Assembly (NCBI RefSeq): GCF_004010195.1
Contig: NC_057737.1
Span: 35,652,866 to 35,716,865, forward strand
Direction: 5' to 3'
Length of the DNA: 64,000 nt
Origin: Chiloscyllium plagiosum
Lineage: Eukaryota
The notes beneath the pieces are model-generated. The model had not been told where the DNA came from and did not search any database. It saw only the letters and a list, made by a program, of their open reading frames with translations. A program made the position numbers and the translations under genes. Below are positions 17,659-59,228 of the stretch, in pieces (position 1 is the first letter of the stretch; every line of letters begins with the position of its first letter).

Positions 17659-19443
17659 AAAGTATTTTATGTTGGTTTTAATATTCCTTGCACGTTTTGT
17701 TTTATATCCCCTTTTCGAAATTCTTAATGTTGGTTTTGTCACCCTTTGCTTTGTAAATTTACCACTCATCATAATCGATGCATTTTCATTTGCACTTCTA
17801 TGTACTTTTTTTATCTTAGTCTTATGGTCTTTCCGAGAACATATTGATTTTGGAAACTATCCCAGTTATACTCCAGAAACGTACTACTTTCTTGGCACAT
17901 ACTAGTTTGCTTTTATAAGAAAAGTTAAAATGCTTGAATGTATATTTCTTTGCAATATACATTCAAATCATTGAGACATCTGCCATACTGTTATAAGGTC
18001 CGCAACAATCCCGTCAATACTTACGATCTTCCCAACATAGATGTCCCCTTAATTATTTAATGCTCTACAGCTACTACATTACGCTTCTTCTTTACCTCCT
18101 CCTCCATCCTCGCTGGTTAGAATTCTGACTTTTTTCTGACAAGTCTTTTATCCTCATTCTCACATGGAACAAGTGCATTGTACTCCTTGGATATGATCAC
18201 TTTTTCTGTTTCCTGATTTCTAATTCAACTAGATTCCCTTACTCTATATGCTATCAACAACATCAACACCAGCATGTACCTGTACCTTTTAAGAGGTGGG
18301 ACTGAAGTTTGGAGAAAACTATCCCTAAATTCTGTGTTGAAATGTCTGCAATTCACACAGCAGTTTAGTGAGCTGGACAGATTTGAGACCGATTCACCTA
18401 CTGGAAATGTGTTCACTTGAAGCAGTCTTGCTATCTACAAATTTCCACATTCTGCAATGCAAATACACAATCTACCATATGTAATGCATAGCATTTATAT
18501 TATTCATAACTACTGTGTGTTTATAATCTAAGTTATTGTTTTATTGCTTCAGAGAAATTAACCTATAGCAGAGAAGGAAGCTGTTTAGCCCATTGTGTCT
18601 GTACTAATTCTTTGAAAGCTCAGTCATGACTCGTCCCACTGCCTTGCTGTTTGTCTGTAAATTTGTATGTTTTCCAAATATATCTGAAATCAGTTTCCGT
18701 CAGTTTTTTTCTGGCACAATGTTCCATATTCCAGCAATTCAGCTCTTGAGTAGAGAGACAAATCGTCATCTTTTCTATAAATAATTTAATCATGATAATG
18801 AATTCATGACTTCTATTTATCAAGCAACTTGCTGGAAAAACTAGTTTTGCTTTACCTGCTTTGTTAAAAGCCTGACCTCTTGAAAACCTCTGATGTCACC
18901 TTTTTCATGTATCTGCCCAAGGGGGACAGTACTGTATTAGCATTTTCAACCTCTCTTCAGAACTGAAGTCCTTCATCATTGATAACATCCTGATAAACTT
19001 TATTTGTACTCTTTTTCTAATGCCTTTACATTATTACAAGCATCCACACTTCTTTAGCTGAGGCCTGAACAGTATTTTCTAACGTTCTAAACTAATCTGT
19101 GTTTTTATGCTTTAATCCTTTATTTATAAATCCCAGTAGCCTGTATGCTTTTCAATTACCTTATCAAGTTGTCCTGCCAATATGTCAGAATTGATGTATT
19201 TTAACACCAAGGTCTCTCTGCTCAACTATACTGTTCACAAATGGGTCAATATTCTGTAGTGTCTTTCCATATTTATTATCTGTGTGCATTGCTTTATATG
19301 CCTTCATTTTGAACTCATTTCATTCTAAGTCATTCTGCAGTCTATTAACTATCCTTGTCGTAATATACTTTAGCAAATAATATATAAACTTAATGCTGCT
19401 CCCTGTATCAGAATCGAGGTAATTTATATAGATTGAGCAGGAG

Positions 19444-19479
19444 AATCGACGTTTCGGGCATGAGCCCTTCTTCAGGAAT
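19444..19479 (-). ncRNA. Minimal hammerhead-ribozyme-like motif in a Penelope-derived fragment
   Basis: Minus strand ATTC-CTGAAGA-A-GGGC-TCAT-GCCC-GAA-ACGT-C-GATT: CUGANGA and GAAA core, 4-bp stem II, palindromic ACGU stem III, GUC triplet; stem I is weak. Confidence 0.6.
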
Positions 19480-21030
19480 GAGGAAAGTGTGTCCAGCAGG
19501 CTAAGATAAAAGTTAGGGAGGAGGGACTTGGGGGACAAAGCTTTTCACTGTGCCTCGGTGCATGTGACAATAAATTCAATTCAATTCAAAATTAGTAATC
19601 TCCAAGACTGAAATAATGTGACCAATACCTCCACTTTTTTTTTGCTTCTTTTTACAACCTAGCACACACTCCATCTGGATCAAGAGACAAATCAATTTCC
19701 AGTCATTCAAATTTTTTTGTCATATCTTTTCTATTTATTATTACCTATTCATAATTTCCTGCTAATAAAAATATAAAAAGCTGGAAAATCTTATCAGGTC
19801 TGGCAGCATCTGTGGGGAGAAAGAAGAGTTGATGTTTCAAATCCAAAGTGACCCTTCTTCAGAACCATTGAACCAGCATCTGCAGTTCTTTTGGTTTTTC
19901 ATAATTTTCCACTTTTTCTTTTTGAGTTCACCACCACAACAACCACTCCTTTGTGAAAGTACGTGAAAAGCATGTACTTAATACTTTTACAATGCTACTT
20001 GACTCTACGTGAAGACTTTCTTTTGGTCTCTAATAACTGCTTTTACTTTCTATGACATTTTTGGAAACAAACCCAAATTTTAAAAGAGACAAGCTCTCTA
20101 ATGAGGCATGTGTCTCTTTTTATACACTTAACATATTTGAACAGGATTTTTTTTTAATGACATACCTTCATGGCAGCGGAACCTGAACTCAGATGTTCTG
20201 GTCTAGAGAGACATTACAACTGTGCCATAGACCCCTATAAAGTAATAGTTCAGGCAATTGAATTCCTCATCCAGTAACATTACCACTATGATGCTGGTCC
20301 TGTAAATGGCTACTTGATGCTCTATTTTAAATGTAACCAGCGCAGACCTGCTTTGACACACCTTTTGGGGCAGGTAGGACTTGAACTTTCAGACCCACAG
20401 GTATGGATACACCACCTCGGGATCCTTACAAAGTTTTCGATCTTTGGATTACTAGTCCAGTAACAATACTATTATGATTCAATTTCTATAAATGACTGCT
20501 TCATACTTTTTAAATAAACATTTAACTAAAATCAATTAAACCTAATTAAAAGTTAACAGCCCTCTAAAGGGACACTATAAGAAAAATCAAATGCTCAAAG
20601 CAAATTTAAAATGTAAATTTCAATGTAATTACGGGTCAAGATTATGCACTCCAGCCCCTGCGGTTCTTACAATTTATATCTTAATAGAATGTTTTATGGT
20701 TCAATTTAATTTTGCTTGCTAATCTTTTCTCATAATGCTTTTGCCTCCCTTATAAACGTTTCATTTCTCTTCTGTACTTTCCATGATGTTTCTGGTTAAT
20801 AATTGAATTTTGCTCCTTACAGTTGTAGAAGTCTCCTATTTCTATTTCATTTCGATTTTTGTTTCTTTTTATCGTCAGAACGGACGAACTGTGGATGCTG
20901 TACCTTCTCCTTTCAAAGGAATATGCATGGCTTTTACTTGGACTAGCTTTCCCTGACCATTTTCCATTGTCCTGGAATAATAGAGAAAGATAAAGAGAAG
21001 GGAGACACACACTAATATGGATTAATATTA

Positions 21031-30322: not shown

Positions 30323-32503
30323 GTAAGTATGTTTAAAATGTTAGTACTTGATGCTCTGAGATGACCCTTTGCACGCACTGTTCGGTTTGATTTGATTTGA
30401 TTTATTTTCTTCAGCTATGAGCAATGTTGAAGAGATTGCATATCGTTGTTCTGGGAAAGTAATGCTAAGTGGGCCCCTTGAAAGGTTTATTTAATTTTTG
30501 TTTACAATTAAGTGGCTTGTAAAATAAGTTCAAAGGGCTTCAAGAATCACACTAGAAGTAGAGGACTAGAGTCACATGTAGGACAGACCTGCATAACAGG
30601 TACCTTTACCTGAAACTAGTTACGTTTTTCAAATCTATTTTTTTTTCTCTTATATTACCAAATCTTTGGCTATTAAATTTCTTAACTTACCTAGTGGAAT
30701 TTGAGATGCTAATCTAGTTCAGTGTCGTAATAATAATCCCACTACTTTACCATTAATGCTGAATGATAATGAACTGTGTGAACAAAATCTTACCATTTGA
30801 TATTTTCATGTGCAATGCCACATTAAAATAGGTTAATAATTTTGTTGTTAGCTTAAATATTACCAAATTATTATAAGAACATTAACATTTCTGTCATAAA
30901 TGCTCTTTGTGACAACCTTGATTCATCATCTCAAAATCCTACATGTGACCAGCAAAACATCATCTTAGTATTAAATGATTGAAAAGACATTGTTTTTCAA
31001 AATTTGGGCAGAGTATATAAATAGTTTTTCTGAAATTTCATAAAGAGTGAAAGTGTCGTGAAACTTCACTGACGCTAAATGTCAACACTAATTTAAAGGA
31101 ATGGTTTCGGGCATCTGTGGTGCAAGAAGTAGCATCCTTATCTCTGAGCCAGGAGTTACGAATGAGCCCACACTTATAATTACACCCTCCTTATCCAGCA
31201 AATCCTAAGAAGGCCAATCAGATTGGAAACCTGCAAATTCCAGCATACCATAATGGCAGATGGTAGGAGTGGGAGAGATTCCTGACATCCTTGTGTTAAA
31301 AAGAATGTTGGAGCCTCTACCATCATTATCCATAGCTCCAGAATACAACATGCATGTTGCTGCAGCAGCTCTAATACTGTGAGTAGACAGTGACATACCA
31401 CCACCATAGGAGGGAAGCTGAGGAATAAGTGCATGATTTATAACAGAAAATAGAAAATATGAAATGTTTAATCTCCAGTGCAACTGGTGCAATGATCTTT
31501 GTTATGCTGACTACAAAGTAAATACTAGTAAATTGACTAATATTTTGAAAAAGTAACACAATGTTAGATCAATGAATAAATGTGAGTAAATGCTCAGTCC
31601 AAGATGTAATTCTTGATCAGTATATAGTTATGTGGTATCAGTGGTGTCAAAATTAAAAACTGTATTTGGTCAAAGTTCTTGGACTAATGAAGAATAAGTG
31701 TTTGGCAGGAGTATTCTTATGGATTCTTGTAGAGAGAGGAGGAAAACTTCTTCAAGGAAGGCATCCTTGCAAGAGGATTCGCAGTAGGGTTAAAATCAAC
31801 GAGGTAAAAACAAGGACTGCAGACAGGCAGCATCCGAGAAGCAGGAAAATTGATGTTTCGGGAAAAAGCCCTTCATCATTCCTGAATAAACAAAGTGCAA
31901 TAAAGGGCACAAAGTGAGGGCAGTTTCAGGTTGGTTGTGTTAACACCCATTGTTATTTGGACTTCCAGTAGTAAATACCTGTAATTTATGCAGTAATCGC
32001 CAGACTCAAGCTCTTTCTTCAATGAAGAGATGGATGGACTCCTACAGTGGCACTATTTAATAACAGCAACATTCAAATGTGCAGTGCAAACTAGCAAATA
32101 TGATGGGGTCTTCTCAGCTTAATCCTAATTCCACTTATTTGATCTGAGGGTCTTTGTGAGCTCCACGTTTAGCCTTCAGTCACTAAGTTAAGTGTGGATA
32201 AATGTTCAGATCAGAAAGATCTTGGCTTTGATGTCAGATATTGTGGAACAACCTGATGGTGTTTACTATCCTGACTTGTACATGAAAAGTGGTCACCTGG
32301 GAACAGCCAAGCTTCTTGGTCACGTAACCTTGCAGGAGTCAGTGTCTCCAGGGAAGCAGGGACAAGAACTCGGGAAAAATCTTATTAAATTGTTTTTTAT
32401 AACATTAATGGGCATACATTGTACCTAAATGATTGGAAATGTTTTTCCTTCTAATGATCATTTCAGATTGATTAAAATATGATTGTGTGTTTTAATCTTT
32501 CAG

Positions 32504-32894: not shown

Positions 32895-33878
32895 TTGGGT
32901 GAACGTAGCTGAGAATGAAATAGGTAGATGAAGGTGGGGGAGAAGGTGATGGGGTGAAGTGGCTAGATGGCAAAGGTGATGGACAAGTTAAGAGGGTGAT
33001 GACAAGTTGGAGGCTTGGGACTGGGATAATGTGGGTGGGGGTGGGAGGGGGGAGATGAAATGACCTATCCCCACGACTAGGGACATATTTCCCTTTCCAA
33101 CCCTATCAATGTTCCAGAGACACCGTTCTCTCCACGGCTCCCTTGTCAGATCCATGACCCCACCAGCCCACACCCTACTCCTGGCACCTTCCCCTGCCAC
33201 TGCAGGAAGTACAAAACCTACCTTCCCCTGCCACTGAAGTACAAAACCTATGCCCACACCACCCCCCTCACCCAAGTCCAAGGCCCCAAGGGATCCTTCC
33301 ACATCCAATAGAAATTTACCTGTACCTCCCCCAATGTCATCTACTGTATCTGTTATGCCCAATATGGTCTCCTCTACATCGGGGAGACTGGATGCCTATT
33401 TGTGAATCATTTCAGAGAACATCTCTGGGACACCTGCACCAACTAACCCCACTGAAGACTTCAACTCCCCCTCCCACTCCTCCAGGGACATGCAGGTCCT
33501 GCCTCCTCCATTGCCAAACCCTTACCACATGGTGCCTGGAGGAATAACGCCTCATCCTCTGCCTTGGGACCCTGTAACCACATGGATCAATGTGGATTTC
33601 ACCAGTTTCCTCATTCCCCCTCCCCCCACATTATCCCAGTCCCAAGCCTCCAACTTGGCACTGCCCTTTTGACCTGTCTATCACCTTTCCTATCTACTTG
33701 CTCCACCCTCCTCTCCAACCTATCACCTTCTCCTCGACCGTCATCAACCTATCACATTCTCAGCTACTGTTCCACCCCCCTCCCATTTATCTCTCAGCCC
33801 CCTGTCGGAAAGCCTCATTCTCCTGCTCCTCGGATACTGCCTGACCTGCTGCTCTTTTCTAACATCACACTCTCGACA
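32895..33878 (+). mobile_element. Penelope-like 3' fragment with a short inverted piece (about 32895-33063)
   Basis: GIY-YIG region (FTCTSPNVIYCICYAQYGLLYIGETG) on plus; 32895-33063 is an antisense copy of its 3' part. Confidence 0.75.
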
Positions 33879-43739: not shown

Positions 43740-44890
43740 TCATATCTACATTGTAAACCAACAGCAACCTGAATATACCAAACTGCAAATCTACTAAGTT
43801 TACATCCCCCATGAATTCCTGTATAGTAGTGAGACAGGGACTACTTATGATAGGAGAAAGTGAGGTCTGCAGACGCTGGAGATCAAAGCTGAAACTTTAT
43901 TGCTGGAACAGCACAGCAGGTCAGGCAGCATCTAGGGAACAGAAGATTCGACGTTTCGGGCACTTATGATAGGCAAGGTATCCTCAGCATATCTTGGGAA
44001 GACAAAGTCACCAACTTTGAGGTCATCGTTCGTGAAAGCATACACAATTTTCAAAAAATATCTGCAGTGACTTGTCATCATCTGTCCAGAAACAATTACA
44101 TGTGTGGTAATCTGGACACTGGGTCTAATCTACTGGATGTGTATATCTAGAGTCATAGAAATGTATGGCATGGAAACAAACCTTCGGTGCAACTTGTCCA
44201 TGCCAACCAAATATCCTAACCTAATCTCGACCCTTTCTATTCATATACTCATCCAGATGCCTTTTAAATGCTGCAGTTGTACCAGCCTCCACCAATTCTT
44301 CTGGCAGCTCATTCCATACATGCACCACCCTCTGTGTGAAAAAGTTGCCCCTTGGATCCCATTTATATCTTTCCCCTCACTCTGTAGCTTTGGCTCTCCA
44401 CACACATCTTTCTCTCCCCCCGGGAAAAGACTTTGTCTGTTTATACTATCCATGCCACTCTAAAATGTAGCACCTCAAATTTATCTAAATTAAACTCCAT
44501 CTGCCACTCCTCAGCCCATTGGCTCATCTGATCAAGATCCTGTTGTACACTGAGGTAACCTTCTTCACTGTCCACTACACCTCCAATGTTGGTGTCATCT
44601 GCAAACTTACTACAACACACCTACAGGTGAGCTATGAAATAAGGAAACATTGAATCAGGCAATTCGGAGACAGCCATTGAATGTTGAGATCCCTGGAGAA
44701 TGATTATTCAGAGGGGCTATCAAAAGAGGAGGGAAGAAATGGGAAATGTCTCAGCGCATTGCCTTTATCTGCAGCAAGTGCAACAGAGACTGCTGTGCAG
44801 GAGTAGGACTTCTGCATCACAGTAAGTGATGTTTAACAGAATTGACTACCAAAGTGCAAGCCATTGTCTCGTGATTTGGGAGGCTGACAA
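43740..44890 (+). mobile_element. RTE-clade LINE remnant with nested Penelope mini-element (43855-43961) and CR1 fragment (about 44150-44612)
   Basis: ILSISWEDKVTNFEV and C-terminal zinc-finger-like FICSKCNRDCCAGVGLLHH, both typical of RTE ORF ends. Confidence 0.6.
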
Positions 44891-45934: not shown

Positions 45935-46008
45935 ATGGCGTATTGCGGCGATGAGCGGGTGGAAGCGGTTTACCGGACCCGGGACCCGGTGAAAAATCTC
46001 CGGATCCG
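45935..46008 (+). CDS. MKS1: MKS1 coding exon 1 (ciliary transition-zone B9 protein)
   Basis: MAYCGDERVEAVYRTRDPVKNLRI(R) matches the MKS1 N-terminus EAVYRSRDPVRNLRLR; donor CG|gtacgg. Confidence 0.95.
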
Positions 46009-46868
46009 GTACGGGGCGAGGAGAAGATTAACCCGGGTTATTTTCTTCTGGGGTGGAAGAGAATGAGAATAACACGTTCTTTGGGCGGGAGGGGGAGAGG
46101 GTGTAGGAGTGAGGTGAACACCGTTGTGAGAATAATGAATATTTGGTTGTAAATGAGATGAATATAAGGTCAGGAAATGATCGTGTTTAATGTTTGAGGG
46201 GTGTGTAGAGTGTGATGGTGGGTCATATTATTGTGGGGTAGAGCATTCAGCTGTTGCATTTATTGAATAAAACTTGTTTTATTGCTTCAGTATGGAGAGG
46301 CGATGTCCTAAGTGGTATTATTATTAGACTTTTAACTCAGGGGACACTGATGGTGTCCTTGGAACTTGGGTTCAAAACATGTCAGATGGTGAAATAAACA
46401 ACCGCCTTGAATTAAGAGTCTAACAATGACCATATAACCATTGTTGATAAAACTCATCAGTTTCACGAAAGACCTTATACTCCTAAGCTGCTGTCCATAA
46501 CTGGTCTGCCCAACAAACCCACTGCAATGTGGTCGATTCTTAACTGCCCTCTGGAAAATCCTGGAAGCACAATAAGTGTTGGCCCAGCCAGTGGTATCCA
46601 CATCCTGTGAACAAATAAAAGAAACATGTTCAGGACAGAAGAACATGGGAGTGGTTCCGGGTAGAACGGTACATAAGGATGATGTTTTTGGACGAGAAAC
46701 TGACTAGATAGTTCTATTTTTCTAAACAAAAGCGAGATGTTGAGATGGAAAGTTGGATTCATGAAGGACAGCCAATGATCTCCATCGAAAACTTACCTGT
46801 GAAATGTTGCTTATCACTGTTGCACTTTGGCTAAAATTGCATTTATGTCAGAGTTACTCTGTCAAGCT

Positions 46869-48876
46869 GTCAAAAAATGTAGTGTTGGAAAAGAATAGCC
46901 GGTCAGGCAGCATCTGAGGAGCAAGAGAGTCAACATTTCAAGCATAAGCTCCTCATCAGGAATGTGTGAGTGTGTTGGCTGGGGGAGAACGGTGAGGAAA
47001 GGGGGCTGACATAAATGGGAGGGTGTGTGGAGCTGAGCGGAAAGTAGCTGGAAATGAAGGTGGGGATGATGGTGATATGTCAGAGTGGAGGGTGGAGCAG
47101 ATAGGTGAGAATGAAGATGAACGGGTAGGGCAATGCCGAGTTGGAGGGTTGGATCTAGGATAAAGTGGGGGGAGGGGAGATCAGGAAACTGGTGCAATCA
47201 ACATTGAACCCGTGTGATTGAAGGGTCCCACGGTGGAAGATGAGGTGTTCTTCCTCCAGGCATTGTGGGGCTAAACTTTGGTAGTGGAGGAGGCTTGGGA
47301 CTTGCATGTCCTTAGCACTGTAGGAGGGGGAGTTGAAATGTTTGGCCACAGGGTGGTGGGGTTGATTGCGTGTCTCCTGGAGATGTTCTCTGAAACGTTC
47401 TGCAAGTTGAAGTCCTGTTCCCCAATGTACAGAAGACCACATGGAGAGCAACAGACACAGTAGATGAGACTTTTGGAGGTGCAGGAAAATCTCTGCCGAA
47501 TGTGGAAGGATCCTTTGGGGCCTTGAATGAAGGTGAGGTGGGAGGTGTGGACAGAGGTTTTACAAGTCTTATGGCAGCAAGAGAAAGTGCCGGGAGTAGA
47601 GAGTGCATTGCTTGGGGATGGAGACCTAACGAGGAGGTCGTGGAGGGATATGGACTCTGCAGAATGCAGATAGGGGTGGGAAAGAAATATATCTCTCGTG
47701 GTGGGATCTGATTGTAGGTGTTGGAAATGGCAGAGGATAATGTGTTGTATCTGGAGGTTGGTCGGGTGAAAGTTGTGGACTGGGGGCGGTCTGTCCTTGT
47801 TGCGATTTGGAGGGGTGGGGTTCAATGGTGGCGGTGCAGGAACCCCACCCTTGAACTTTGCCCTTGAACCCCACCCCTCCAATTGCAACAAGGACAGAAC
47901 CCCCTGGTCCTCAACTTCCACCCCACCAACCTCCGGATACAACGCATCATCCATTGCCATTTCCGCCACCTACAAACAGACCTCAGCACCAGTGATATAT
48001 ATTCCCTCCCCACCCCTGTCTGCATTCCACAGAGACCATTCCCCCTGTGACTTCCTGGATGGGTTCATGCCCCCCACCAACCCACCCTCCACTCCTGGCA
48101 CCTTCCTTTGCCAATGCAAGAGGTGCAAAACCGACACCCACACCTCCCCCTTCACTAATATCCAAGGCCCCAAATGATCCTTCCATTTCCGTCAGAGATT
48201 TTCCTCCACCTCCAAACACCTCATCTACTGTGTCCGTTGCTCTCAATGTGATCTCCTGCACACTGGGGAGACAGGACGCTAATGTGTGGAACATTTCAGA
48301 GAACATCTTTGGGACACAAGCATTCAACCCCACAGCTCTGTGGTCGAAAACGTCAACTCCCCCTCCCAGTCCGCCAAGGACATGCAAGTCTTGAGCCGCC
48401 TCCACCACCAGATTCTAGCCACTGGACACCTGGAAGAAAAACACCACCTCTTACACCTTGGGACCCTCCAACCACACGGGAATCAATGTCGATTTCACCA
48501 ATTTTCTGATCTCCCCTCCCCCCACTTTATCCCAGATCCAACCCTCCAACTCGGTACAGCCCTCTTGAATTGTCATACCTGTGCCTCTTCCTTCCCATCT
48601 ATCCACTCCACCCTCCACTCTGACCTATCACTATCATCCCCTTACCTTCATCTACCTATCACATTCCCAGCTACCTTCCTCCTCACAACCCCACCCTCTC
48701 CCATTTATCTCTCAGCCCCGCTTGGCCCCCCACCCCACCATATTCCTGAGGAAGAGCTTATACTCGAAACATTGAATCTCCAGCTCCTCGGATGCTACCT
48801 GATGACCAGCTGTGCTTTTCCAGCACCACCCTTTTTGACTCTGATCTCCAGCATCTGCAGTCCTCACTTTCTCCTC
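46869..48876. mobile_element. 2-kb inverted (fold-back) Penelope-like insertion with 13-bp TSD
   Basis: Left arm on minus (FSCTSKSLIYCVCCSPCGLLYIGE, GIY-YIG) and right arm on plus cover the same PLE 3' region, with the axis near 47845; ACTCTGTCAAGCT at 46856-46868 and 48877-48889. Confidence 0.85.
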
Positions 48877-51597: not shown

Positions 51598-51662
51598 GTG
51601 GTTATCGGACACATGACCAGGAGGAGGTTGTGGTGGGTTGGCAGGAGAAGCTATTCAGTCAG
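51598..51662 (+). CDS. MKS1: MKS1 coding exon 3
   Basis: ttttag|(G)GYRTHDQEEVVVGWQEKLFSQ|gtaact; conserved GWQEKLFSQ. Confidence 0.96.
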
Positions 51663-52682
51663 GTAACTCATCTGTCATTTTACTGTGAAATCAGAACAAT
51701 AGTGATTGATTTTGAAGTTTACTGTTAAGGCGGAAGGATATTATTTGAGGGATATATTTCACTTTATATCTTTGCTTTACAATATATTTTTAAAACAAAC
51801 AACCGTAAATTATAGATTAGAAGCAGCCCTATGCTAGCATCAGGTCCACTAAATTACATAATTTCATTTAATCAAATTGAATTCATAAAGCAGTCACTAT
51901 TTCAAGACTAGATTGACAGATTTAGTGCTCTGAGTGTGCTGGTGTGGTAGGATTTGTGGGGCACAATCATGTTGGTGTGATATAGAGGAGACTGATTGAC
52001 CTCAGACTATTCTATAGGTGGTCTGTAACCTTACCACTGAAGTCATTGGGAAGTAAAGATGAAGCTTTTATTCCCCTTACATATTAAAAATTTGTTAGGT
52101 ACTGCTTCTACTCCAATGACCAAATGGGAGGCAAGCCATTTTATTTGCACAGATTTGACTATTGAGCAAGGCAGCAACGCTGAGCAGTTGCTCAGTGCAG
52201 TAAATGCCGAACAGTGAGGGATTGGAGAGTGAGGGCAGATCGCAGAATCATTAGAGTAGTTGTACCACAGAAAGAGGCCATTAAACCTATTGTGTCTATG
52301 CTGGTTTTCTACCCAGTTTGCGACCTCCACTTGGTGCTAATTCCTTGTTTTTCCCTCTAACCCTGCAATTCTTTCCCTTTTTCAAATAATAATCAAATTA
52401 CCTTTCAAAAGCGTCTATTAACCATGTCTCCATCTCTTACCAGCATATTTTAGATTCTAACTACCTGTAGCATTAAAAGGGTTTTTCTCACATTGCCACT
52501 GCTAACTTTTAGCATTCACATTAAACCTTTCCTTTCTCGATCCTTTCACCATAGGAACAGTTTCTCCCTATCTAGTATGTCCATGCCCCTCATGATTTTG
52601 AACATCCTTATCTTGGCTAACTCTTCTCTTATGCAAGCAATGTCAATTTCTCCAATCTTTCTACGTAACTGAAGTTTCTATA

Positions 52683-53003
52683 CATACAGACAAGGAAGTA
52701 CACCACCTTGGCTGGGACAACACACACATCCTAGGTCAGGTGAAACAAAGACATGCCTGAGAATTCTTAGAGGCATAGCATTCTAACCAGAACTCCATCA
52801 ATAAACACATCGATTTCGATCCTATCTACCTTCCCTTGAAAAAAAGAACCAAAAATGACATCACCCACCTTAACAAAGGAAGACTTATATATAGGGAGAT
52901 GGGACATACCACCAGCACTTCACTGGAGACTCTCACTGATGATATTACCTAGTATGGTGACAAAACATCTGAAAACATCAGTGAGCTAACTTACATACTG
53001 AAC
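52683..53003 (+). mobile_element. Penelope-like 3' end (third family) with degenerate hammerhead motif
   Basis: WDNTHILGQVKQRHA*EFLEA*HSNQNSINKHID (GIY-YIG C-terminus), then TCA-CTGATGA-TATTACC...GGTGACA-AAACATC-TGA. Confidence 0.7.
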
Positions 53004-53780
53004 TTTCTCATCCCGCGAACCATGTTTTGAGAATCTTTTTGCATTATCTCTAATTTCTTCAAATCCTTCCTAAAGTATGATGCCCAGTCTTAGATGAAAA
53101 AAAACATCCAGTTCAGGCCTTACCTATATTTTATACAGGTGTACCATAAATTGCTTTTTTACTCTGTATGTCTGTTGATAAAACCCACGTTGCTGTCCCA
53201 CCCAGACCCATATGCTTTTGTGTCTTTTTCAGCAAAGCCTTGACAAGGTCTCACATAGGAGACTTACAAAGAAGGCAAATGCACATGGAATACAGGGTGA
53301 TTAATAAAGAACATTTAACATTGGCTCATTTGTAAGAGATAGAGATGGCTGAAAGTTGCTTTAGTGACTGGAAGCCACTGTCTGGTGACATGCTACAGGA
53401 ATCTGTGCTGATTCTCCTATTATTCATCATTATATACATTACATAGATGACTGTGTCGGGGCTGGATTAGTAAGTTTGCAGATGACACAAAGATTGGTAG
53501 GGTGGTTAACATTGAGTTTGGGGTTCTTTAGGCTCCAAGAAGATATCAACCAGATGGTCAAGTAGACAGATAAATGACAGATGAAATTTAACTCTGAAAA
53601 GTGTGAGGTGATACACTTTGGAAGCAGTAATTTGACAAGGAAGTATTCAATGTACAGCATGAACTAAGAAGTTCTGTGGAACAAAGAGACCTCTGAATGT
53701 TTGTCCATAAATCTCTGAAGGTGATGTTAGGCTGGTGAAGAATGCTTATGGGGCACTTGCCTTTATCAATCAAGATATAG

Positions 53781-53992
53781 GAGAAAGTGAGGACTGCAAA
53801 TGCTGGAGATCAGAGCTGAAAATATGTTGCTAGAAAAGCGCAGCAGGTCAGGCAGCATCCAAGGAGCAGGAGAATCGACGTTTCGGGCATGAGCCCTGAC
53901 TCCTGAAGAAGGGCCCATGCCTGAAACGTCGATTGTCCTGCTCCTTGGATGCTGCCTGACCTGCTGCGCTTTTCCAGCAACACATTTTCAGC
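53781..53992. mobile_element. Miniature fold-back Penelope-derived element with hammerhead motif, inserted in a CR1 remnant (about 53200-54600)
   Basis: ~85-bp near-perfect inverted arms (53813-53897 and 53910-53994); TCAATCAAGATATAG direct repeat at 53766-53780 and 53993-54007. Confidence 0.85.
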
Positions 53993-56188
53993 TCAATCAA
54001 GATATAGATGACAAAAACATGGAAGTTACATTGGAGTTATGTTTAACTTTGGTGAGACCACAACTAGAGTACTATGTGCAGTTCTGCTCACCACATTCAA
54101 ATTACACTGAAGTGGGTGCAGAGGTGATTCACCAGGATGCTGCCTGGGGTGAAAAATTGAAGTTACAAGGAAAGGGTGGACTGGCTTGGTTCGTTTTCAT
54201 TGGAGCAGAGAAGATTGAGTGCTGAAATGATTGGGGTGTACAAGATTATGGGGGGGGCATGGACAGAGTGGGTATGGTGTAGCTATTCTCCTCAGTTGAA
54301 GGGTCAGTTATGAGGTGACATCGGTTCAAGGTGAGGGACAGGATGTTTAGGTGTGGATGTGAGGGAGAGCGTATTTATCTAGATGGTGGCGATGGTCTAG
54401 ACTGTGCTGCCTGGGAGGGTGGAAGAGGCAAATTACCTCTCGTTCTTTAAAAAGTGCTTGCATGATCACTTGGCATGTCATAATATTTAAGGCGATGGGC
54501 CAAGTACCAGCAAATGGGATTAGGTTGAAAGTCAGGTGTTTGTCGGTGTCGGAAACCTCGACGGGCCAAAGGGCCTCTTCTGCACTGTGATTCTATGCTT
54601 TTCTTTTTGATGTGTACTATTTTATTTTATATTGTCTCTCTGTTTGACCTACCCAAATGAAAAGCCAAACTTCAAAATGATGCTGAAGTGTAGCAACTCT
54701 CCATGCACTGTCCCTGACAAATTATCCCCTCACATCTTTTATAATTGTTGTACTCTCTTAAATCTCAATTATATCTTTCTATGTGCCTTCTCTGCAGGCA
54801 TAACACCATATTCTGCATTCTGTTCTATTACCCTGACGTACTTATGTAAGGTATGATTTGTCTGGATAGCATGCAATACAGTATTTCTCACTGAATCTCA
54901 GTACGTGACAATAGTAAATCAAATCAAACCCCTCTGCATTGAATTTCATCTGCTTCTTATCCACAAATTCTAACACATTCTGGGGAATTCTTGCATTTTT
55001 TTTGTAATATTTCCAAGTTTCCAAGTATAAATTTGTAAGTTGTGCCCTGGAGAAGGAGATCCAAGTCAGTCGTATAAGTCAGGGGTCCATTGTTTATTAC
55101 ACTGATTAAGAATCTCATTTACCTCCATTCTGAGAAGGCAAAGATTTTTAACACAATTCAGCCAATCTCATATCCATGGTTGTACGGTCCATGAACTCTA
55201 CTTTGCTCGCATCTGTTGTGAGACATATTATCAAATGTCTTTTGGAAGTCCATGTACACCATGTTAACAACATTACCCTCATCAACCTGTTACGTTATCA
55301 AAAATCATGTGAAAGTTAGTTAAATACAATTTGCCCTTAAACCATACTGATTTTCCTTACTGAACTCACATTTGTTTATTAGCTTTGTCCTGAATTATCA
55401 TTTCTAAATGTTTTCTCACTACTAAGGTTAAACTGAATGGTATGTAGTTGTTGGACTTGTGTTTATACTGTACATCCTTTTATGAATGAAGGTGTATGTA
55501 ACTTTTTGCCATTCTCTAATCTTCTGATAACAGTCTTGAAGCTCAGGAAAATTGGAAAATTAAAGCCACTGTGTTCACAGTTGCCACACTCACTTCCTTT
55601 GGTATCCTTGGATGCATCTTATTTGGTCCTAGTGCCTTATCAACTTTTAAGTAGACAGGCAATCCATTAACCATCCCCACCTCCCCCACATCAATTTTAA
55701 ATTATTCATGATTCTGAGCCTCATGTTTCATCATGATCTGCATCTTCTTTCCTCATAAAGGCAGATGCCAAGTATATATTTATAACTCAGGTATGCCTCT
55801 ATATCTATATGTCAATCCTCTAATCAGTTCCACTTCTATTTGTATGCCTGCAGAGGGCTTGCAGAAATTGGTGATTTGAAAAGAACATTTTTTTCTTCTC
55901 TTCATTCGTGAGATGAGGGCATCACTGGCTAGGTCAGCACTTATTGTCTATCCCTAATTGCCCAGAGGGCAGTTGAGTCAACCACAGAACTGTGAGTCTG
56001 GAGTCACATGTAAGCTAGACCAGGTAAGGATGGCAGTTTTCTTTCCTAATTCCACCATCTACCTTGGAAGGATTCAGACCTAGGTCTCCAGAGTATTACC
56101 TGGGTAGCTGGATTAACGTTCCAGTGATAATACTACTAACCTGTCACCTCCCCTAAGAATTTTCTAGAATATTCTGTTTTCATTATAG

Positions 56189-59086: not shown

Positions 59087-59228
59087 GAGAAAGTGAGGAC
59101 TGCAGATGCTGGAGATCAGAGTCAAAAAGTGTGGTGGTGATGAAGAGCTTATGCTTGAAATGTCGACTCTCCTCCTCGGATGCTGCCGGACTGACTGTGC
59201 TTTTCCAGCACCACACATTTTGACCATG
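59087..59228. mobile_element. Miniature partly inverted Penelope-derived element with 13-bp TSD
   Basis: AACCTTCTCTCAG at 59074-59086 and 59229-59241; antisense tail followed by a sense segment TGATGAAGAGCTTATGCTTGAAATGTCGA. Confidence 0.8.

What the first reader, a model, noticed from the sequence alone, without database searches (positions are those of the whole stretch)
53766..54007. Miniature fold-back retroelement carrying a hammerhead ribozyme motif, with a clean TSD
Seen: a ~212-bp insertion bounded by a 15-nt direct repeat. It consists of ~85-bp inverted arms, a ~33-nt tail on one arm only (GAGAAAGTGAGGACTGCAAATGCTGGAGATCA), and CTGAAGA-AGGGC-CCAT-GCCT-GAA-ACGT-C at 53903-53930, spanning the loop and the start of the right arm. 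Established: Penelope-like elements carry minimal hammerheads in their pLTRs and can form inverted pLTR structures with a short unpaired tail. Inference: this is either a non-coding, MITE-looking but RNA-mobilised unit or an extreme truncation product. The long hairpin would sequester the ribozyme, acting as a structural off-switch inside MKS1 intron 3.
Basis: partly seen in the sequence, partly recalled or inferred. Interest (0 to 1): 0.7.

Follow-up and report, generated by a model that had tools for sequence, protein, structure and literature searches.

The report
Head-to-head Penelope stub in shark intron
This 212-base mirror-image insertion in a shark MKS1 intron is one of thousands of stubs left by a Penelope-type jumping gene; it is ordinary in itself, but the family's ends suggest both halves were likely copied separately up to the capped start of the element's RNA.

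Summary
In detail: a 212-bp insertion (53781-53992) with a 15-bp target duplication, 85-bp inverted arms, a one-sided tail and a hammerhead motif, in MKS1 intron 3. It is not a new unit. It is the terminal repeat of a Penelope-like element (RT plus GIY-YIG), pasted twice head to head. An exact family 35-mer occurs 17,010 times, and 58 of 97 sampled loci are fold-backs with varied centres. This copy's junction is unique in the genome. Inner ends pile up at the hammerhead's 5' edge (67 of 82 arms that get there), not at its cut site (2 of 142). An extra G precedes that edge in 66 of 100 junctions, against 11 of 100 at a control position. Best reading (inferred): both nicked target strands prime short copies that run off the capped RNA start and are joined anew at each insertion. 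Here the ribozyme is predicted fully buried and has lost its G10.1-C11.1 pair. Burial follows from the geometry and is no evidence of an MKS1 switch. The layout is published; I found no paper on the run-off or cap signature. This scan reported the same on other DNA many times.

The parts
53766..53780 (+). Left copy of the 15-bp target-site duplication; its last 2 nt also match the element's continuation beyond the tail
   Evidence: the same 2 nt precede the tail in 62 of 97 sampled loci
53781..53814 (-). Tail (R1-R34): the stretch between the two inferred reverse-transcription start sites; in longer copies it runs on into the leader and ORF start
   Evidence: (387 exact tail-leader junctions)
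53781..53897 (-). Tailed arm (R1-R117): pLTR copy broken off inside the hammerhead, lacking the first core box
53898..53898 (+). Single extra G before the boundary base; candidate copy of the RNA cap (inferred)
   Evidence: family statistics
53899..53992 (+). Tail-less arm (R128-R35): pLTR copy from the inferred RNA start (A at 53899) to the second inferred RT start
53903..53930 (+). Minimal type I hammerhead motif: core 53903-53909, bulged A 53910, stem II 53911-53914 with 53919-53922 (G10.1-U11.1 in this copy), GAAA 53923-53926, predicted cut after 53930
   Evidence: features from PMC4209133
53993..54007 (+). Right copy of the target-site duplication; its first 2 nt also match R34-R33 of the element
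53480..54300 (+). Old, decayed LINE fragment that received the insertion (the CR1-type label is recalled, not from a call)
51663..56188 (+). MKS1 coding intron 3; the element lies about 2.1 kb from the donor and 2.2 kb from the acceptor

Best explanation
This is an insertion of two short head-to-head copies of the hammerhead-bearing terminal repeat of a Penelope-like retrotransposon, likely a dead end, and likely made when each nicked strand of the target primed its own short copy from the front of the element's RNA. Shown: parent ORF, TSD, one-sided tail, fixed outer ends, varied centres, a sharp inner boundary and G enrichment at that boundary. Inferred: the GIY-YIG nuclease makes a staggered cut about 15 bp apart. 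One strand primes at the tail end (R1) and the other at about R34, the two internal RT starts found in vitro for an anole element. The RNA likely begins at an initiator-like A (R128) 4 nt before the hammerhead core, so the copies run off after about 128 and 95 nt and often copy the cap as an extra base. The two copy ends are trimmed and joined through microhomology, anew at each site. The ribozyme is a passenger, predicted buried in the hairpin and decayed in this copy.
For: Parent: sequence upstream of the hammerhead encodes GIY-YIG (PF01541, E 6.5e-5). L184 holds a 561-aa frame with RVT_1 (E 1.4e-8) and GIY-YIG (E 5e-4, below the curated cut-off) ending in this pLTR. The tail continues into a leader and ORF start. 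Sample: first 100 hits of an exact 35-mer = 99 loci, 2 dropped, 97 analysed: 58 fold-back, 18 single arm, 13 into gaps, 8 complex. TSD found in 54 of 58, 40 of these 14-16 nt. Inverted arm's outer end at R27-37 in 48 of 58. The inverted arm reaches further inward than the tailed arm in 30 of 58, which snap-back from the tailed copy cannot give without later deletion. 67 of 82 arms reaching R124 end at R124-133 (67 of 92 counting 10 gap-censored longer arms), against 3 of 128 ending at R86-95 and 2 of 142 at the cut site. Repeats that lead into the ORF also stop early: 25 of 30 at or before R133. Base before the boundary A: G 66, A 24, T 10 of the first 100 of 3,015 junctions (tallied by eye), against G 11 of the first 100 of 220 at R88 and 22% background. 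Junction unique: 1 exact match, 8 at one mismatch. One simple junction occurs in both orientations to the tail (L129 against L078 and L080), and others in both SNP subfamilies.
Against: The two arms agree at subfamily SNPs far above chance (34 of 35, 43 of 48, 46 of 49), which snap-back or copying of a fold-back master also predicts. Several simple junctions recur many times. The RNA start is inferred from DNA only; raw RNA reads showed no pile-up of molecule ends (a single-cell polyA library ill suited to this). In 41 of 100 junctions the base before the boundary is the templated C, and ends spread over R116-133, so the start is not a single base. In 8 of the 19 inspected G junctions the G is also present in the joining partner, so it shows as microhomology bias rather than a bare added base. 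The sample is the first 17.5 Mb of one contig, chosen by an exact 35-mer (young, tailed copies), and long inverted copies fall into assembly gaps. BLAST ends are uncertain by a few bases.
Confidence: 0.65

Rival explanations
1. Single-primed snap-back: one cDNA primed at the tail folds back on its own 3' end and copies itself; later deletions at the palindrome centre make the arms unequal. Still a dead-end stub.
For: High arm concordance at subfamily SNPs; near-perfect palindromic centres among top hits; self-priming was proposed for such palindromes in PMC3846280 (Discussion).
Against: The tail-less arm ends at a fixed second site (48 of 58 at R27-37) with a TSD, and it is the longer arm in 30 of 58, in some far longer (R254 against R50). 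A few copies have discordant arms (4 of 48 swap between the two alleles at R86). The anole protein extends both strands in vitro (PMC11167929).
Confidence: 0.17
2. Self-propagating non-autonomous fold-back unit: hairpin copies are transcribed and re-inserted whole.
For: Top 30 hits share both outer ends and about 205-220 bp length (selected by similarity); arm concordance; recurring junctions; 8 loci within one mismatch of this junction.
Against: Lengths run from 96 to 430 bp with dozens of junction types among 58. The complex junction shared by L070 and L073 has 1 exact match genome-wide and the two loci lie 114 kb apart. Recurrent junctions are mostly simple microhomology joins, seen in both orientations and both subfamilies. 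0 of 101 rare variants are shared by both arms.
Confidence: 0.1
3. The boundary is an RT stall or an inherited 5' end of a few master elements, not a capped start; the G excess has another cause, such as terminal base addition by RT at a template end.
For: No direct TSS data; ends spread over about 15 nt.
Against: G excess is seen at the boundary and not at R88; upstream sequences at G junctions differ in all 19 inspected; RT has already melted the hammerhead's 3' half before it reaches R124 (reasoning).
Confidence: 0.15
4. The hairpin is a selected off-switch or other regulatory element of MKS1.
For: The core lies on the pre-mRNA strand and is predicted fully buried; the insertion may be shared with two other organisms (weak).
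Against: Burial is automatic for the geometry; 7 substitutions from the family majority in 211 sites, including C11.1>U; thousands of equivalent stubs; more than 2 kb from either splice site; minimal hammerheads are reported inactive as monomers (PMC4209133).
Confidence: 0.03

Closest known systems
Insertion unit of endonuclease-bearing Penelope-like elements: pLTR, adjacent inverted 5'-truncated copy, 30-40 bp tail at one end, TSD (PMC3846280; PMC8557442 Fig. 2 legend)
   Same: Head-to-head inverted pLTRs, one-sided tail of about 33 nt, TSD, tail continuous with the start of the ORF region.
   Different: No ORF at all: both arms are under 130 nt. TSD 14-16 nt against 8-10 in the rotifer cases. 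At least about 6,900 such centres in one genome.
PAc, Poseidon element of the green anole (PMC11167929)
   Same: Two RT start sites bounding the tail; both strands extended; hammerhead not needed for insertion; no reads ending at the cut site.
   Different: The parent here has the linker Zn-finger-like motif that Poseidon lacks; the first clear ATG of the long ORF lies downstream of the tail; in the parts I read the paper does not treat inverted stubs, a run-off boundary or an extra G.
Minimal hammerheads of metazoan PLE pLTRs (PMC4209133)
   Same: Core boxes, bulged nucleotide after position 9, palindromic 15.2-16.2, no helix III; opposite-strand pairs 100-700 bp apart were noted there.
   Different: Helix II is 4 bp and helix I only 2 bp plus a mismatch; this copy has G10.1-U11.1.
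Non-LTR retrozymes (bioRxiv 10.64898/2026.07.22.740005)
   Same: Non-coding, hammerhead-bearing, derived from PLE pLTRs.
   Different: Those are head-to-tail tandem arrays; this is one head-to-head pair.
Twin-primed L1 inversions (recalled, no call)
   Same: Both cut strands prime cDNA and the products join by microhomology.
   Different: In L1 the two copies come from different parts of one RNA; here both cover the same stretch, giving a palindrome.

Membership tests
EN+ Penelope-like element insertion | Parent ORF with RT and C-terminal GIY-YIG ending at this repeat | tested here: met
   L184; GIY-YIG over the cut-off in L033, under it in L184
EN+ Penelope-like element insertion | [quoted passage not shown] | tested here: met
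   read by eye from the translation; definition from PMC8557442
EN+ Penelope-like element insertion | pLTR plus tail also found in front of the ORF | tested here: met
EN+ Penelope-like element insertion | Inverted 5'-truncated copy, tail at one end, TSD | tested here: met
Neptune or Nematis clade | CX2-5CxxC linker between RT and EN | tested here: met
   CX4CxxC; definition
Neptune or Nematis clade | Placement in an RT tree with named references | not tested
   hits carried no clade names; no tree built
Minimal type I hammerhead | Core boxes and bulged nucleotide after position 9 | tested here: met
   53903-53930; bulge is A in 238 of 241 descriptor hits
Minimal type I hammerhead | G10.1-C11.1 pair | tested here: not met
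   this copy has G-U; 192 of 241 descriptor hits have the family stem with G-C
Minimal type I hammerhead | Helix I of 4-5 bp | tested here: inconclusive
   2 pairs, a mismatch, 1 pair, by inspection
Minimal type I hammerhead | Self-cleavage as dimer or with protein | not testable with these tools
   only 2 of 142 arm ends fall at the cut site
MITE (features recalled) | Terminal inverted repeats at both ends, short fixed TSD, uniform length | tested here: not met
   tail outside one arm; TSD 11-20 nt; length 96-430 bp
Non-LTR retrozyme | Head-to-tail tandem units, each with a hammerhead | tested here: not met
   head-to-head pair with one complete core; definition
Self-propagating non-autonomous unit | Distinctive junction inherited by many dispersed copies | tested here: not met
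   only two junctions were counted genome-wide

The most novel reading that the evidence does not exclude
These stubs are a fossil record of how Penelope-like elements insert: one protein dimer primes both nicked strands at two sites in the RNA's 5' leader, copies through an uncut hammerhead that forms the first 36 nt of the transcript, reads the cap as an extra base and joins the two products head to head. That would explain the inverted pLTR with one tail, and would mean the hammerhead does not make the template's 5' end but could remove the cap.
Probability: 0.5. Interest if true: 0.6.

Novelty: new member of a known kind. Interest (0 to 1): 0.33.

Why it matters
The copy itself is ordinary. 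The family matters because the later steps of Penelope insertion and the role of its hammerhead are still open (PMC11167929 says the later steps await validation). Thousands of short insertions give three direct tests: a predicted transcription start, a predicted cap-derived base, and mixed arms from two templates. Such stubs also place many near-perfect 85-bp hairpins in introns, likely substrates for RNA editing (inference; palindromic repeats in frog are heavily edited, PMC5625713), and can be mistaken for MITEs in repeat libraries.

Tried and rejected
Rfam: only generic hairpin matches, all far below gathering scores, no hammerhead. Full-length parent: most long 'ORFs' were assembly gaps or a tandem repeat; no single intact element was seen. 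Empty site in relatives: no such joint among the listed rows (803 rows not shown). Contigs of organisms B and C join the right arm to the flank, but with only 23-25 letters inside the element, under the tool's 31-letter bar, so sharing is only hinted. Expression: no RNA holder listed. In one search one raw run gave 2,137 family reads in both orientations, 96% running on into unlike sequence, with no pile-up of ends; the second raw run gave 0. Neither tests this locus or the start site. PDB search of an MKS1 exon: no hit. Sequence look-up of earlier findings: nothing. A splice acceptor as source of the boundary was rejected: no AG lies directly upstream of it in the parent. The L070/L073 shared junction as a subfamily was rejected. 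L124 and L129 were fetched the wrong way round and left out of all counts except the orientation example; both look like fold-backs. Literature searches found no paper on shark fold-back stubs, twin priming in PLEs or a cap-derived G in PLEs; subscription journals and Repbase are outside the library, and I opened no supplements.

Full report
Observation. The 15-nt direct repeat (53766-53780, 53993-54007) and the 85-nt inverted arms (94% complementary) are as described, and the hairpin is far more stable than 200 shuffles. With the 212 bp and one repeat copy removed, the flanks align without gaps to 25 of 25 junction-spanning LINE homologues, some of them duplicate loci. So this is an insertion with a true target duplication into an old LINE fragment. 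A B9-domain exon downstream of the window matches shark MKS1 proteins. Those proteins place coding exons near 45935 and 49006 and from 56189, and an exon at 51598-51662 translates to residues 68-89 of P0001. The element therefore lies in intron 3, more than 2 kb from either splice site.

Family. I number positions from the outer end of the tail (R1 = 53781). The 40 scored genome hits, the window copy among them, are full length at 91-100%, and nearly all of the 30 fetched carry their own target duplication (by eye). An exact 35-mer from the tail and arm occurs 17,010 times. A pattern for the fold-back centre occurs about 6,860 times on each strand. The window holds at least seven more relatives.

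Parent. Copies that extend past the hammerhead run into the end of a GIY-YIG domain. L184 has a 561-aa frame with RT, a CX4CxxC linker and GIY-YIG, followed by this repeat. By the definitions in PMC8557442 (passages) the linker points to the Neptune or Nematis clade; I built no tree. In other copies the tail continues into a leader and an ORF start (387 exact junctions). The repeat is thus a pLTR present at both ends of the element, and the tail is the RNA just downstream of it. PMC11167929 (parts 1-2 of 4 read) shows in vitro that such a tail lies between two internal RT start sites, that both target strands are cut and extended, and that the hammerhead is not needed for insertion.

Geometry in a sample not chosen by shape. 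The first 100 hits of the 35-mer gave 99 loci. I dropped 2 that I had fetched the wrong way round, leaving 97: 58 fold-backs, 18 single arms, 13 running into gaps and 8 complex. Fold-backs are 96-430 bp long with dozens of junctions. A TSD was found in 54 of 58, and 40 of these are 14-16 nt. The tail-less arm ends at R27-37 in 48 of 58, and it reaches further inward than the tailed arm in 30 of 58. A fixed second outer end and a longer second arm fit separate priming on each strand better than snap-back. Against this, the arms agree at subfamily SNPs in 34 of 35, 43 of 48 and 46 of 49 copies, so both arms usually come from the same source, as snap-back or a fold-back master would also give.

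Not a self-spreading unit. This copy's junction has one exact match, itself, and 8 at one mismatch. A complex junction seen in two sampled loci has one exact match genome-wide. Simple junctions do recur, but at least one is found in both orientations to the tail, and others in both SNP subfamilies. I counted only two junctions genome-wide, so occasional re-mobilisation is not excluded.

The boundary. Of 82 arms reaching R124, 67 end at R124-133 (67 of 92 if 10 longer arms cut by gaps are added). Only 3 of 128 end at R86-95, and 2 of 142 at the predicted cut site, R96-97. Repeats that lead into the ORF behave alike: 25 of 30 stop at or before R133. R128 is an A in a pyrimidine context that fits the initiator consensus as I recall it, 4 nt before the first core base. 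D. virilis Penelope has an internal promoter (PMC2377424, passages). Among junctions ending at R128, the preceding base is G in 66, A in 24 and T in 10 of the first 100 listed, out of 3,015. At R88 it is G in 11 of the first 100, out of 220. Both tallies are by eye; background is 22%. Of the 29 loci inspected, 19 have the G: in 8 it is shared with the joining partner, in 7 it lies in an insert of 1-2 bases after the partner sequence, and 4 were unresolved. This copy has the same signature: tailed arm to R117, a G at 53898, then the second arm from R128. That RT copies a cap as an extra G is recalled; one search gave no direct source. In one search, 41 of 100 junctions instead have the templated C, so the start is probably spread over several bases.

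The ribozyme. The family motif has the features listed in PMC4209133 (parts 1-2 of 4 read): core boxes, a bulge after position 9, G10.1-C11.1 and no helix III. That paper found no cleavage for a monomer and weak cleavage for dimers. In this copy position 11.1 is U. Stem II has probability 0.000 in the full hairpin, in 600 nt of context and in nascent prefixes, against 0.65-0.89 in the isolated arm and 0.99 in a family-type arm.

Comparison and verdict. The layout is published: inverted 5'-truncated pLTR, one-sided tail, TSD and palindromic junction (PMC3846280, passages and Discussion; PMC8557442). It is not a tandem retrozyme (bioRxiv 10.64898/2026.07.22.740005, part 1 and passages) and not a MITE. 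PMC3212892 (passages) added nothing, and PMC5625713 (passages) bears only on editing of palindromic repeats. I found no paper on the run-off boundary or the extra G; supplements and Repbase were not seen. After reaching this reading (statement, note 72) I found that this scan had reported the same on other DNA: 294 findings held my search words, several with the same start-site and cap reading. These are unchecked notes and not independent support. Verdict: a real, ordinary new member of a known kind, interest 0.33, with a testable family-level mechanism as the main value.

Noticed in passing
window 59087-59225: A second fold-back of a related subfamily in the next MKS1 intron, with very unequal arms and a 13-bp duplication.
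   Followed up: partly
window 43854-43962: Single tailed arm of a related subfamily with a duplication of about 12 bp.
   Followed up: partly
window 19435-19540, 31824-31878, 33817-33869, 46865-46961, 48744-48873: Further pLTR fragments of this and related subfamilies; the one at 48746 has a decayed hammerhead core on the MKS1 pre-mRNA strand in intron 1.
   Followed up: partly
L189 (= L089), L190-L217: Many short partial tandems: pLTR, tail, 40-450 nt of leader or ORF start, then a jump to a second pLTR that often begins near R124-139. This looks like RT template jumping at the RNA's 5' end.
   Followed up: partly
L070 and L073 (G000:C1, 114 kb apart): Two neighbours share a rare complex junction; L070 has tails at both ends, no TSD and 5-bp inverted flanks, which suggests local recombination or conversion.
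   Followed up: partly
L182:1485-3219: About 24 tandem copies of a 73-bp unit from the GIY-YIG region next to a pLTR.
   Followed up: no
window 53926-53929 (+28 to +31 from the inferred start): The hammerhead's last box overlaps the position of a downstream promoter element and partly matches the motif given for D. virilis Penelope; the ribozyme may double as promoter. Weak match.
   Followed up: no
L184:2725-3774: A second, diverged Penelope-like copy (about 70% identical) in inverted orientation abuts the 561-aa frame.
   Followed up: no
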